Position numbers and translations under genes: made by a program
The notes under the pieces: model-generated
What the model was told of the DNA's origin: nothing
Database searches by the model: none
The model's input: only the letters and a program-made list of their open reading frames with translations
Source: Octopus vulgaris
Lineage: Eukaryota
Direction: 5' to 3'
NCBI GenBank assembly: GCA_951406725.2
Contig: OX597816.1
Span: 17,484,001 to 17,548,000, forward strand
Length of the DNA: 64,000 nt
Shown here: piece after piece, positions 1,344 to 47,315 of the stretch
Layout: each line of letters begins with the position of its first letter
Numbering within the stretch: position 1 is the stretch's first letter

Positions 1344-1944
1344 TATTTCTTTATTGACCAAAAGGGGCTAAACATAGAGGGGACAAACAAGGTCAGACAA
1401 ACGGATTAAGTCGATTATATCGACCCCAGTGCGTAACTGCTACTTATTTAATCGACCCCGAAAGGATGAAAGGCAAAGTCGACCTCGGCGGAATTTGAAC
1501 TCAGAACGTAAAGACAGACGAAATACCTATTTCTTTACTACCCACAAGGGGCTAATCGCAGAGAGGACAAATAAGGACAGACAAACGGATTAAGTCGATT
1601 ATATCGACCCCAGTGCGTAACTGGTACTTATTTAATCGACCCCGAAAGAATGAAAGGCAAAGTCGTCCTCGGCGGAATTTAAACTCTGAACATAGCGACG
1701 GGCGAAATACCTATTTCTTTACTACCCCACAAGGGACTAAACGCAGAACGAACAAACAAGGACAGGCAAACGGATTAAGTCGATTATATCGACCCCAGTG
1801 CGTAACTGGTACTTAATTTATCGACCCCCGAAAGGATGAAAGGCAAAGTCGACATCGACGGAATTTAAACTCAGAACGTAACGGCAGACGAAATACCGCT
1901 ACGCATTTCACCTCGCGTGTTAACGTTTCTGCTAGCTCGCCGCC
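1344..1944 (-). mobile_element. SINE family A2 (tRNA head, Meta-like core), trimer with one head
   Basis: Three ~185-bp bodies joined at AAGAAATA|GGTATTTC, with one GGCGGCGAGCT head at 1944. TSD AGAAGCYGTAGTTTCT at 1328-1343 and 1954-1969. Confidence 0.9.
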
Positions 1945-4900
1945 ATAAGTGCGAGAAGCTGTAGTTTCTGTAAACATCTCATTAGATGAGACATTTTTAT
2001 GAGCAATCACTCACAGATATAAACTCTGATAATTTCGTACAAATTTACGCCACTGCATACTATTTTAGGATCATCAAACAATTTCACTCTGTTTTTGTTA
2101 TGGCCCAGGATGAATATTCAAGAACGCAAAGTGATTTTCTTGCATGCATAATTATTTTCATATCAGATTCGCTGATTGGTAACGATGATGTTGGCGAAGA
2201 CTAAAGCTTTGAGAAGCAGCGGTTTAGTTATCAAAAGATAGAAATCAATAATATCGAACCGAGTAAATTTACGCTCTTGCATATCGCTTATACTACTAAA
2301 CCGTTTTATTAGACACTCTATTATTCCATAAAAGAATAGAAATAATATTCCTTTTATTCTAATCACAATAGAACCATAGATAAGCTTGTTAAATAGTCCT
2401 AATGCAGAAGACTGCATTTTTTCCCCCCACAATTTCGATTTAGCCCCTTCGCTGCCATTTTTTGACGCAATCTTCATTTGCTTAGATTTCTCTTTTGTAC
2501 AGTTTAGATTAACTTACACGCGCGGAATTTTCATCTCGTATCTTAAAAAATATTTAAAATCCTATTTTCTTCCCTTTATGCTCGATATTTTTTTTTAAAT
2601 GTTATCTATCGTTCATTTTGTTATATGTCCTTTATTTCTCTATACTTTCGTATATTCAATACATATTTTACTCGCTTATTTATACACATCCCCTCCTATC
2701 TTTTTATTATCAAATAAAATCTTTATTTATTGTCAATGTGCATATTTATGTATTCGCATATTTACATATTTGCTAATTCTCTTAATCTCTCTTTTCCCTT
2801 GGTTATAATTTCTTCTTTTCTGAAACCGGTAAAAACACAATCAAGCCAGCCATTTATTTGAATACAACTATATGGTCAACTAATGAGATTATTTTGTCCC
2901 ACATTAATCCCTTTAAAACGCCTGTATATATATATATATATATATATATATATATATATATATATATATATATATATATATATATGTATGTATGTATGTA
3001 TGTATAAATACATGCATGTATTATGAATATTTATTCATATTTATATTTTTACACATATACACACATAAAATAGAATATAATTATATAAATATGAATATAT
3101 ACTTTCATAATACGCGCATATACATTCATATAAATATATATACACAAAATATATGTATGTTCAATATATACTACATGTTTATAAAAATTTGTAAAAATCA
3201 ACCTAGCATGGCCGCGGCCTTCAGGCTAAAAGATTTTAAAGAATTTTAAGGAATTATATGTGTGCATACACATATATGTATGTAGATATATACATTATAG
3301 ATACTCATAGGCGACGTATACATAGAAAATGCGTATATACATATATATGTATATACACCATTCACATTACAGATCTACATCTACCCTATTTGCACCAAAT
3401 CCAGAACTACTTACCTCTTTTACTCATAATCTTTTTACTCAGGGACCAGTAGACCTGACACCATTCATTAATCGGTGTGCATTCAAAGCAATGATTAGTA
3501 ATTTTACAAAACCGGTATGCTTTTGAATCTCTCTAACAATTAACAATAATGACTTTTATTACTTTTATTCCTACCTCAGTTCATCTAATTGTATATATAT
3601 CTATCGTTACTTTTCATAAAAGTCCTTTACTTCTTTTGATTTCCAATGTGCATTTTCACTTATTTTTCTTCTTACTTTCCCCCTACATTTCCACGTGTAG
3701 TTTCTATTTTCTTTCTGTAACATATTTCTGGTTTCCTTTTCTTCCACCTTACTGTCTCCCCCCTCTATCTCTCTCTCATTCTTCATTCTTTCTGGTTTCC
3801 TCACAACCATTCCCTTTTTTCTCTCCTTTTCTCTTGCTCCTCCTCCCTCCCGTCGTTGACAGCGACGAGAGCTCTGCTACTGTCTTTCTGACCTGGCTTC
3901 CTTGAAGTGTTGACGGCATTTTGTGTTGCTCCTTCGCCGTTCTTAAAAATAGCGTTCGTAATACTTTATCTCGCTCGGCTTAACAGCCCTTCTTGTCTTG
4001 TTATTCTCCTTGTCCTGTCTTTTACTGTTTATATTTTTGACTGTCGTTACTGTCATGTTTTTGTTACCATTTTTACTCCTCCGCAAAAAGATCTCAAATT
4101 TTATTTAATTTGCTTTTCGCGGGAAGGAAAGTTTCTATCGAAGATGCGTATCGCCTTCACCTTCGAAACGCAGAGAAGATGAAACCATGGCGACGGAAGA
4201 AGGGGAATTTTCCTTGTGTTATTTGTCCTGTACTCCAGTTTCTTGGTTTTGTGTTTATGTTTTCGCTTCTCATTGTGTTCGACGTTTTTTTGGTGTCCTG
4301 TACCCATATATGCATATATATATAAATGTAGAGATAGGTACGTACATATATGTATATATGCATATATTTTATTTATTAATTTATTATATATATATATATA
4401 TATATATATATATATATATATATATATAGACACAGAGACAATGAGACAATAATATCCTGTGCATGAAGTCAAGATACAAGGTATCTTGATTCAATGTACA
4501 CTATTAATGACTAAATATCTTATTTAGATTAAACTAAAACGCTGGTAGTTATTTTCCATTACATCTTTCTACTATTTAGATCCTGACTCTTATTTAAGCA
4601 TTGCCACTTACCATAGGATATTATAGTAAAATACTCTGATGGTATTTTATCTACTTCTCCAAGACAGTAATTGTTTGTCATTGATATCAAACTATTCTGC
4701 CCTTTTGTGTGTGTCAACTGACACACTGTATGATTAAACGTGTAAAAGTTTTTAATGCAACAACGGCTGACGAAATGAATTCTCACAAAATACGCCATAA
4801 GGTTATATTCCAAAAGTTACCTCGCTGGCACGTCATAGTATGTATTGCATATTTTCTCCCTGTAGTGCAGTTGAAATTCATTTTCGTGCTTTATTAATTC

Positions 4901-5042
4901 ACTTGGATGTAAAATTTAGCGCTGGTTAACGGTTGAGATATTGTTTACCGTGAATGATTTAAATATCACGTTTAGATAACCTTGGGTATACTCCTCTGTT
5001 CCTATGCATCTCTTTCTCCCCCCCCCCTTTGTGTCTCTCAGT

Positions 5043-5332
5043 ATATATATATATATCAATATATGTATATATATATATATATATATATCAATATATATAT
5101 ATATTTATATATATCATATATATATATATATATATATATATATATATATATATCAATATATATATCAATATATATATATATATCAATATATATATATATA
5201 TATATCAATATATATATATATATATATATATATATCATATATATATATATATATATATATATATATATATATACACACACACATAAATACATACATACAT
5301 ACATACATACATACATACCTACATACATACAT
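5043..5332. repeat. (TA)n/(CATA)n microsatellite, representative of dozens of (TA)n/(CA)n tracts in the window
   Basis: Direct observation. Confidence 0.95.
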
Positions 5333-5792
5333 AACCTCTAATTATTGGGGCCCCGGGATACGTAACACACTGCCTGTATACCTATCTTGAGAAATTAGTC
5401 TTCTCAAAACCAGAAAGGAGAAAGCTAATTCGAAGACTACAGATCCAATCCATCTCTGATACTGTGATAGTCTGTAAAACTTTCCAGAAGTTTATCATTT
5501 AAATATATATGAGCATGTCCTGTCCAGATATGCAACTATATGCACGAGAATACATTCGTAAAAGAAAAGATATAAATCTACACATATACATGCATGCTTA
5601 CATACAATCAAAAATACCCTTTTGTTGATGCCGAAATTTCAATGAACAAACCTTGGATCTAGTTTAGAAACCGGCTCTATTTCTATTGGCAAGAAATCTT
5701 AAAACAAACTGAACAATGACACACACGCACACACACACACATACACATACACGCACATATATACACACACACACATACACATGTAAGGTGTT

Positions 5793-45658: not shown

Positions 45659-45875
45659 AAAAAAAAAAGAAAAAAAGAAATGAAATGCCCGGGTGATCAC
45701 AGCCAAAGTGGCTTTGGATCTGTGGCGCAGCTAGAGTGTGCTCCGCTCGTGGGAGACCTTGAGCGTGCCGCCCCCGGGCGCCAAAGCCTATCCTGGCTTA
45801 TACAGCAGAACCAAAAGCGCTGTCCCTATAAAGACGTCGCCGTGAGCGGACCTCCCTCCCCGCCTCAACCTAGCA
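45659..45875 (-). ncRNA. GC-rich structured Pol III-like RNA fragment; candidate 5'-truncated 7SK copy
   Basis: Minus strand: ..AGGCGGG..TCCGCTC...GAGCGGA..CGCC-ACAGATCCAAA-GCC..GGCTGTGATCACCCGGGC, then a T-run. Confidence 0.4.
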
Positions 45876-46042
45876 ATGCTAATGCTTTGAATCCTAATTT
45901 GTATCAGCGCTGACACAAACTATAACGCATTAAACAGGACAGCATAACTTAATAAAAGTATTACAAGATTTATTGTTATTCTTCTGTTGTCTGAGTTTAA
46001 AATCAATCGGAGCCGGATTTATTTTTCATCTTTGGTGGACGT

Positions 46043-46228
46043 AGTGGTGGTGGTGGTGGTGGTGGTGGTGATGTGATGGTAGAGGTGGTGGTTGTGGTGG
46101 TCGTGGTGGAGGTGGTGGTGGTAGTGGTGGTGGTGGAGGTGGAGGTGGTGGTGGTGGTGGTGGTGGTTGTGATGGTGGTGATGATGGTGGTGGTGGTGGA
46201 TGTAGTGGTGGTGGTGGTGGTGGTGGTG
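46043..46228. repeat. (GGT)n tract
   Basis: Direct observation. Confidence 0.95.
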
Positions 46229-46304
46229 ACAGTGACAAAATGAAATGCCAGTAATACAGGAAAAATTGCTTCAATTAACCGCATCATTCAGCAAAAATAA
46301 TATT

Positions 46305-47315
46305 GGTTTCAAACTGTGATACAAGGCCAGCAATTTCACAGGAGTGGAAGTTAAATCGTTTAAATCGAGAGCAGTGTTCAACTGGAACTTAACTTATCAA
46401 CACCGAAAGGATGAAAGGCAAAGACGACTCCGGCGGAATTTGAACTGAGAACGAAGAGACAGACAAAATGCCGCTCAGCATTTAACCCGCCATGCTAACG
46501 ATTCTTATTTCTTTATTGACCACAAGGGGCTAAACATACAGGGGACAAACAAGGACAGACAAACGGATTAAGTCGATTACATCGACCCCGTGCGTAACTG
46601 GTACTTAATTTATCGACCCCGAAAGGATGAAAGGCAAAGTCGACCTCGGCGGAATTTGAACTCAGAATGTAACGGCAGACGAAATACCTATTTCTTTATT
46701 ACCCACAAGGGGCTAAACACAGAGGAGACAAACAAGGACAGACAAACGGATTAAGACACCCCGTGCGTAACTGGTACTTAATTTATCGACCCCGAAAGGA
46801 TGAAAGGCAAAGTCGACCTCGGCGGAATTTGAACTCAGAACGTAACGGCAGACGAAATACCTATTTCTTTATTACCCACAAGGGCTAAACACAGAGGAGA
46901 CAAACGGATTAAGTCGAATATATCGACCCCAGTGCGTAACTGGTACTTATTTAATCGACCCCGAAAGGATGAAAGGCAAAGTCGACCTCGGCGGAATTTG
47001 AACTCAGAACGTAGCGGCAGACGAAATACCCCTAAGTATTTCGCCCGGAGTGCTAACGATTCTGCCAGCTCGTCGCCTTAATTCAGCAAAATAATAATGA
47101 TTTCAAAATTTGGCACAAGGCCAGTAGTTTCGAGTACGGGGTGGGATAAGTCAATTACATCGACTCCAGTGCTCAACTGGTACTTATTTTATCGACCCCG
47201 TAAGGATAAAAGACAAAGCCAACCTCGACGGAAATTGAACTCAGAATGGAGCGACGAGCGAAATACAGTTAAGCAGTTCCTCCAGCGTGCTAACGGTTCT
47301 GCCAGCTCGCTGCTT
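46305..47315 (-). mobile_element. A1 SINEs with a nested A2 trimer (46506-47077)
   Basis: Three A2 bodies with one head, inserted at AGAATCGTTAGC in an A1 head; a further A1 copy lies at 47099-47315. Confidence 0.9.

What the first reader, a model, noticed from the sequence alone, without database searches (positions are those of the whole stretch)
1344..47077. SINE A2 appears to target its own head, producing single-head multimers
Seen: multimers at 1344-1944, ~29000-29417, 42803-43220, 44212-44617 and 46506-47077 have one 5' head, and each extra unit restarts at GGTATTTC directly after the tail. In other insertions the sequence after the tail begins GGTGTG, AGTATT, AGAAAC, AGAATC or GGTATT, with 14-16-bp TSDs where they can be resolved. 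A2 also splits older A1 copies at GGTATT (~13527, ~14320, ~28994, and antisense at ~44618). Inference: the partner endonuclease prefers an RGWAW-like site that occurs in the SINE's own tRNA head. The 5' junction would then be resolved by homology, so the family grows by self-nesting. Alternative: rolling-circle reverse transcription of a circular RNA; the junction GAAATA-GG-TATTTC forms a small hairpin.
Basis: partly seen in the sequence, partly recalled or inferred. Interest (0 to 1): 0.7.

Follow-up and report, generated by a model that had tools for sequence, protein, structure and literature searches.

The report
SINE that nests in its head
An abundant short jumping repeat in this animal genome sits again and again at two fixed bases inside the front end of its own family, each of its two tail variants at its own base, likely because new copies are pasted into older ones and fuse with their matching front end, so that the repeat would rebuild its own landing site.

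Summary
Confirmed. The window holds 16 A2 units in 9 loci. All 7 extra units restart at head position 49 (GGTATTT), and the same junction is in contigs of two public runs. Insertion into DNA is shown where the host is an older relative (A1). Two loci keep both heads with a 6-7 bp duplication, and one has an old head on a young body. Units within a multimer are no more alike than units of different loci, and three multimers mix two tail variants, which argues against tandem duplication and rolling circle. New here: tail predicts landing site. CAAT tails are followed by AGAA (3 of 3) and join head position 16; 0 of 13 TAGT/TAAT tails are. Against simple stepwise nesting, terminal units are not older. 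The Tx1 partner and the homology-resolved 5' join are inferred. The scan has noted this self-targeting SINE before on other DNA of this genome. Closest in print: crocodilian SINEU/Tx1-Mar and blood-clam single-head arrays.

The parts
1344..1944 (-). A2 trimer: head unit 1712-1944, head-less units 1528-1711 and 1344-1527 (terminal unit has the CAAT tail)
1328..1343 (-). 3' copy of the 16-bp TSD of the trimer; 5' copy at 1954-1969 (15/16 match)
13477..13898 (+). Two-headed nest: A1 head 13477-13524, GGTATTT 13525-13531, full A2 13538-13769, GGTATTT plus A1 body from 13770
14272..14587 (+). Single-head nest: old A1-like head (70% to A2 heads), young A2 unit 14320-14503 (94% to the A2 majority), A1 body from 14504 (74%)
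28925..29584 (+). A1 copy with its own 17-bp TSD (28925-28941, 29568-29584), split at GGTATT 28993 by an A2 dimer (29001-29226, 29227-29416); A1 body from 29417
34001..34232 (+). A2 monomer, TAAT tail, 14-bp TSD starting GGTGTG (33984-33997, 34233-34246)
42802..43220 (+). A2 dimer: TAGT-tailed head unit and CAAT-tailed terminal unit (43036-43220) followed by AGAAAC; TSD unresolved
44212..44617 (+). A2 dimer inserted at GGTATT in an antisense A1 copy (host continues at 44618-44753 and upstream of 44212); head lacks its first ~10 nt and joins at a short shared CTGG
45396..45627 (+). A2 monomer, TAGT tail, 15-bp TSD starting AGTATT (45378-45392, 45628-45642)
46506..47078 (-). A2 trimer (46862-47078, 46689-46861, 46506-46688); the CAAT-tailed terminal unit joins position 16 of an A1 head whose body runs 46505-46327
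34036..34062 (+). Stem-loop of the tRNA-like head between the A- and B-box-like motifs (shown on the 34001 copy); the position-49 site lies at the 3' edge of the loop. Fold computed on the 42802 copy, -7.8 kcal/mol. Box names recalled.
59515..59564 (+). 3' end of a different element with a related tail (E 4e-8 to the A2 tail profile), ending CAATAAAGAAA; candidate fragment of the partner LINE family, untested

Best explanation
A2 is a tRNA-like SINE whose copies sit at two fixed positions (49 and 16) inside the heads of A2 and older A1 copies, likely because a borrowed site-preferring LINE enzyme pastes new copies there and the new copy's front end anneals to the host's matching head. Shown: fixed 3' junctions; older A1 copies split by younger A2; units of one multimer differ at family-variable positions; tail variant goes with landing site. 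Inferred step 1: target-primed reverse transcription starts at a nick just before GGTATT (TAGT/TAAT tails) or AGAAWC (CAAT tails). Inferred step 2: when the cDNA reaches the same head position, it anneals to the host's upstream head and second-strand synthesis starts there. The result is one head (the host's), a new 184-bp unit, then the host's body. Where homology is weaker (A1 hosts), the ordinary full-length, two-headed product also forms. Each event regenerates the site, so chains can grow. Inferred, untested here: the enzyme is from a Tx1-type LINE. Whether the enzyme or read-through RNA ends choose the site is open. Some multimers may later have been copied whole.
For: A1 hosts are 74-93% identical to the A2 majority over positions 49-140, while the A2 units inside them are 94-98% identical (5 of 5 loci). 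The host at 28925-29584 has its own TSD around the composite. Two-headed nests with GGTATT(T) on both sides at 13525/13770 and 28993/29417. Old head on a young body at 14272. All 3 A1 heads hit at position 49 read GGTAT[TA] there (2 independently of the insert); none of 13 other A1 heads, counted by eye, reads GGTATT (Fisher p 0.01 for 2 of 2 versus 0 of 13). Within-multimer divergence is 0.083 (9 pairs) against 0.092 between loci (111 pairs), permutation p 0.20; shared non-majority states average 1.0 against 0.99. All 9 within-locus pairs differ at 3-9 of the 12 family-variable columns listed. CAAT tails are followed by AGAA in 3 of 3, other tails in 0 of 13 (p 0.002, post hoc). Public runs: tail-to-position-49 joint in 18 contigs of X14 and 6 of X17, and 312 X14 contigs have a TAGT-type tail before position 49. 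With a CAAT tail as reference at 96% likeness, the listed loose ends behind the tail fall after AGAA/AGAAAC, and 17 X14 contigs continue into head sequence. Annealing of cDNA to upstream target is the published model for precise R1/R2 5' junctions (PMC2718515, passages).
Against: Stepwise nesting makes the 3'-most unit the oldest, but terminal units carry fewer private changes (18 of 848 sites) than non-terminal ones (43 of 1163), p 0.048, post hoc and with 16 columns left out. For CAAT units alone it is 12 of 509 against 30 of 824, p 0.26. No CAAT-tailed monomer is in the window (0 of 3), and no two-headed A2-in-A2 nest (0 of 7 junctions). For A2-in-A2 multimers no empty or monomer state of the same locus was seen. 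No partner LINE with coding sequence was found in the window. One monomer sits at GGTGTG, so the site preference is not strict.
Confidence: 0.65

Rival explanations
1. A few nested or doubled source loci are read through by RNA polymerase III and copied whole, so most multimers are copies of multimeric masters rather than separate nesting events.
For: No conserved run of 4 T inside A2: the runs seen are at different places in single copies. One 16-bp TSD encloses the whole 1344 trimer. All 3 CAAT units are terminal units of multimers. Terminal units are not older.
Against: Position-matched units of different loci do not share a haplotype: first units 1712, 42802 and 46862 differ at columns 66, 128, 132 and 233. 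Private-change load is not clustered by locus (p 0.32). It does not explain the A1 hosts, so nesting is still needed as the source.
Confidence: 0.14
2. Multimers form in one insertion event. The reverse transcriptase copies one A2 RNA to position 49 (a loop edge where it may pause or the RNA may be cut) and switches to the 3' end of another RNA that ends in GGUAUU.
For: It predicts units from different templates, one TSD and equal ages, as seen. The junction lies at the edge of a stable head stem-loop.
Against: The same junction exists with much older A1 hosts, which must be DNA-level insertions. The 14272 head is old, not A2-like. Template jumping is recalled from R2 biochemistry and was not tested here.
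Confidence: 0.11
3. Insertion first gives an ordinary two-headed nest, and the doubled head is lost later by deletion between the two heads. Targeting is as in the best explanation; only the 5' step differs.
For: Two-headed nests survive where the heads are less alike (2 of 4 sense A1 hosts) and are absent where they are alike (0 of 7).
Against: It needs near-complete later deletion. No head-to-head joint is among the 15 joints listed (74 more were not shown).
Confidence: 0.05
4. Local tandem duplication or unequal exchange using the GGTATT that occurs both in the head and in the 3' flank.
For: Two multimers (29001, 44212) end at a GGTATT flank. The 46506 trimer has the lowest within-locus divergence (0.04-0.06). 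The blood-clam paper proposes unequal recombination for its arrays (PMC11481361, passages).
Against: No excess of shared changes within loci. Three multimers end at AGAA flanks and mix tail variants.
Confidence: 0.03
5. Rolling-circle reverse transcription of a circular 184-nt RNA.
For: Constant unit boundaries. The back-junction is present in contigs of two runs guessed to be RNA, but it exists in genomic DNA too.
Against: Mixed tail variants in one multimer. The junction hairpin does not fold. The circular unit folds no better than 60 mononucleotide shuffles (z +1.1) and has no match to two hammerhead core patterns. No Rfam match in the window. All 9 loci have a head.
Confidence: 0.02

Closest known systems
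SINEU with Tx1-Mar LINEs, crocodilians (PMC4494074; passages; section 16 whole)
   Same: A SINE with target preference for another mobile element, attributed to a Tx1 LINE. Tandem copies from sequential insertion. Two preferred sites in the target, used differently by different families.
   Different: The target there is a Mariner DNA transposon, and tandem copies are separated by a TSD. Here the target is the SINE's own head and the units are seamless and head-less.
TSD1-(SINE)n-TSD1 arrays of the blood clam S. broughtonii (PMC11481361; passages; figures and supplements not seen)
   Same: One complete tRNA head, then units truncated at the same head position, inside one TSD pair.
   Different: Internal units there also lack part of the tail, only about 3% of SINEs are in tandem or palindromic structures, and unequal recombination is suggested. 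Here tails are complete, 5 of 9 loci are multimers, and older relatives are split at the same base.
R1 and R2 elements of Drosophila (PMC2718515; passages)
   Same: Precise 3' junctions; 5' junctions primed by annealing of cDNA to upstream target; R1 tandem arrays grow by reinsertion at a regenerated site.
   Different: Autonomous elements targeting 28S rDNA; R1 units are full-length and separated by the 14-bp TSD.
SINE-derived satellites of squamates and Dip/B1 multimers of jerboa (PMC10702118; passages)
   Same: Tandem repeats made of SINE parts; many copies in multimers.
   Different: Explained by duplication and homogenisation, or made of full-length SINEs; no self-target site in the passages seen.

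Membership tests
tRNA-derived SINE (SINE2) | Short, dispersed, non-coding repeat with variable TSDs | tested here: met
   232 bp, 9 loci, TSDs of 14-16 bp at 3 loci
tRNA-derived SINE (SINE2) | Head homologous to a tRNA with A and B boxes | tested here: inconclusive
   Box-like motifs seen by eye (consensus recalled); ARAGORN found 0 genes and Rfam 0 matches
tRNA-derived SINE (SINE2) | Transcribed by RNA polymerase III | not testable with these tools
   Only contigs of runs guessed to be RNA were laid
Tx1-mobilised target-preferring SINE (SINEU-like) | More than 20% of flanks are one repeat type (criterion of PMC4494074) | tested here: met
   12 of 16 junctions, and 5 of 9 loci, lie in SINE sequence; one window only
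Tx1-mobilised target-preferring SINE (SINEU-like) | A Tx1 LINE shares the tail or the target | tested here: inconclusive
   A related tail at 59515-59564, and a similar tail joined to head position 51 in X14 contigs (table 5c). No coding sequence was available to classify. The Tx1 label comes from unchecked scan notes.
Tx1-mobilised target-preferring SINE (SINEU-like) | U1/U2 snRNA-derived head (SINEU proper) | tested here: not met
   No Rfam match; works like SINEU but is not a SINEU
MetaSINE or CORE-SINE (octopus OR1/OR2) | Shared central domain of about 60-66 bp | not testable with these tools
   No domain sequence in the passages seen (figures not held). The resemblance to the Meta domain is recalled only.
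Ribozyme-bearing circular-RNA retroelements (retrozymes; features recalled) | Self-cleaving ribozyme in each unit | tested here: not met
   No Rfam hit; no match to two hammerhead core patterns
SINE-derived satellite | Units homogenised within an array | tested here: not met
   Within-locus divergence 0.083 against 0.092 between loci

The most novel reading that the evidence does not exclude
The SINE carries its own address. A source copy nested in a head is transcribed on into the host's sequence, and this 3' extension pairs with the nicked target. Each subfamily therefore homes to the head position where its source copy once landed (49 or 16): a heritable, switchable, RNA-set target choice in a non-coding parasite that multiplies its own landing pads.
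Probability: 0.22. Interest if true: 0.75.

Novelty: new variant of a known kind. Interest (0 to 1): 0.5.

Why it matters
If right, a SINE supplies the target for the enzyme that spreads it, a positive feedback that could help explain very high copy numbers and give a direct route from SINE to tandem repeat. Two tail variants with two landing sites make a natural experiment on whether the enzyme or the RNA picks the site in target-primed insertion, which bears on RNA-templated gene insertion tools. It also means repeat annotations will count one locus as several copies.

Tried and rejected
No whole genome is held, so the genome-wide logo and tree could not be made. Raw-read runs X22 and X23 laid only 15 and 225 of 12.9 million reads each, too few for junction frequencies; the reason is unknown. 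Summed contig depths were not used as copy numbers. A complementary guide segment in the A2 3' part: 30 duplex tests against shuffles (6, 24) gave no convincing signal. The best for A2 was 2 of 200 shuffles (CAAT unit against the bottom strand of the 42802 head), not significant over so many tests. A 36-nt piece of the 59430-59566 element, picked by eye, reached 2 and 8 of 200 against two head variants; the whole piece did not. At 42802 the upstream flank starts GGTAT while the downstream starts AGAAA, with similar bases after. This hints at RNA-derived bases at the junction, but 4.3% of random flanks score as well. The LINE-like fragment at about 17900-18170 (-) was rejected as partner: no match to the A2 tail profile, no informative Pfam hit. 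A look-up of earlier findings by sequence found nothing. Literature: ten searches, read as listings, showed no paper on a SINE targeting its own head; 'octopus + Tx1 + target-specific' gave 0 papers. Subscription papers, Repbase/Dfam entries, the 1994 octopus SINE paper, figures and supplements were not seen and may bear on novelty.
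Full report
Setting. The window is repeat-rich animal DNA (36% GC; many microsatellites). It is likely an octopus: this rests on recall and on unchecked scan notes, not on a call of mine. No whole genome is held. Two related SINE types share about 170 bp and differ in the tail: the older A1 and the younger 232-bp A2. 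Positions below are counted on the A2 monomer; GGTATT starts at 49 and AGAAAC at 16.

Observation. It is confirmed in detail. There are 16 A2 units in 9 loci: 4 monomers, 3 dimers and 2 trimers. All 7 extra units begin at position 49 directly after a complete tail. The join is not peculiar to this assembly. With the 34001 monomer as reference, the tail-to-49 joint was the best-supported joint in contigs of X14 (18) and X17 (6), and 312 X14 contigs had a TAGT-type tail before position 49 (tables are cut, and contigs are fragments, not copies). A contig of X1 matches 43201-43270 without a difference.

Insertion into DNA. Five of 9 loci lie inside A1 copies (p 1.4e-4), and in all five the host is more decayed than the A2 within it. 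At 13538 and 29001 both heads are present with GGTATT(T) on both sides: ordinary nested insertions with a short duplication. At 14272 the single head is old (70% to A2 heads, like A1 heads at 68-85%), the unit behind it is young, and an A1 body follows. This is the single-head architecture with parts of visibly different age. At 44212 the target is a GGTATT in an antisense A1, and the head joins at a short shared sequence. At 46506 the target is position 16 of an A1 head. A1 heads with GGCATT or other variants were not hit at position 49 (0 of 13, counted by eye), whereas the hit ones read GGTAT[TA].

Units come from different templates. Divergence within multimers equals that between loci, and no private changes are shared. 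This excludes late duplication but would also follow from copying a consensus-like RNA, so it is not decisive alone. The stronger point is that units of one multimer differ at family-variable columns, and three multimers end in a unit with a distinct tail (CAAT instead of TAGT/TAAT). A single circular template cannot give that. The junction hairpin has no stability, the circular unit folds no better than shuffles, and no ribozyme was found.

Two tails, two sites. The 3 CAAT tails are followed by AGAA. The 13 other tails are followed by GGTAT[TA] (11), AGTATT (1) or GGTGTG (1). With a CAAT tail as reference at 96% likeness, the listed loose ends behind the tail fell at 43224-43228, after AGAA or AGAAAC, in all four runs, and in X14 17 contigs went on into head sequence (48 rows not shown). 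One search also lists a tail-to-16 joint in X14. So each tail variant has its own site in the head. This parallels the two sites in Mariner-N4 used by different SINEU and Tx1-Mar families (PMC4494074, section 16).

How specific. RGWAW occurs 1393 times and GGTATT 18 times outside SINEs, yet 10 of 11 GGTAT[TA] junctions are in heads (p 2.5e-5 against 9 of 32 sites). More than a hexamer is needed. It could be a longer enzyme site, pairing of read-through RNA with the nicked strand, more efficient completion where the 5' side can anneal, or whole-multimer copying that inflates the count. A2 has no conserved T4 run, so read-through is plausible. I found no convincing complementary guide in the A2 3' part.

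Mechanism. Shown: fixed junctions, split older hosts, mixed templates, tail-site linkage. Inferred: a nick before the site, priming there, and annealing of the cDNA to the host's head to finish, as proposed for R1/R2 5' junctions (PMC2718515, passages). Untested: the Tx1 identity of the partner. My only evidence for a partner is a related tail at 59515-59564 and a similar tail joined to the same head site in X14.

Against my reading. Terminal units should be oldest under stepwise nesting but are, if anything, less changed (18 of 848 against 43 of 1163). This may reflect a short burst, insertion at the 3' GGTATT flank, my handling of subfamily states, or one-step formation. There is no CAAT monomer and no two-headed A2-in-A2 nest in the window. 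Whole copying of multimers and template switching therefore stay open for A2-in-A2 loci.

Comparison and novelty. It works like SINEU/Tx1-Mar but is not a SINEU. Its architecture is close to the single-head arrays of the blood clam (PMC11481361, passages). The ten literature searches showed no SINE that targets its own head, within an open-access library. The scan has already noted this self-targeting SINE and a Tx1 family at the same site on other DNA of this genome; those notes are leads, not support. Other papers seen: PMC13282606, PMC4758252, PMC5804259 and PMC4824008, passages only; none describes these multimers in the passages seen. Verdict: real; new variant of a known kind; interest 0.5.

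Noticed in passing
window 13477-15300, 27649-28290, 28946-29957, 46327-47315: A1 copies form head-to-tail runs separated by near-identical 16-21 bp spacers (e.g. 14640-14658 and 14872-14890), as if A1 inserts at the end or TSD of earlier A1 copies, like R1 tandem arrays.
   Followed up: partly
run X23, laid on window 34179-34233: About 50 raw reads (33 start places) show a 79-bp tandem unit: the same tail-to-position-49 join, then a jump to the A2 3' part. It looks like a short SINE-derived satellite with the same junction.
   Followed up: no
window 34534-34780: Hybrid copy: A1-type body, A2 3' part lacking the last tail bases, then an A1 tail with a 36-bp duplication. Either a truncated A2 insertion joined by homology or gene conversion.
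   Followed up: partly
window 59340-59566: T-rich element ending in a tail related to A2's, between TATC repeats; possibly the 3' untranslated end of the partner LINE family.
   Followed up: partly
window 17900-18170 (-): Reading frame ending in a motif I recall from R4/Dong LINE C-termini, followed by a short 3' end and (AAT)n; its tail is unrelated to A2.
   Followed up: partly
window 41462-41896 and 35221-35707: A 23-bp minisatellite (18.9 copies) and a 255-bp tandem duplication.
   Followed up: no
runs X22 and X23: Two large genomic runs with the same species label as the best holder laid only 15 and 225 of 12.9 million reads on a very abundant repeat; unexplained.
   Followed up: no
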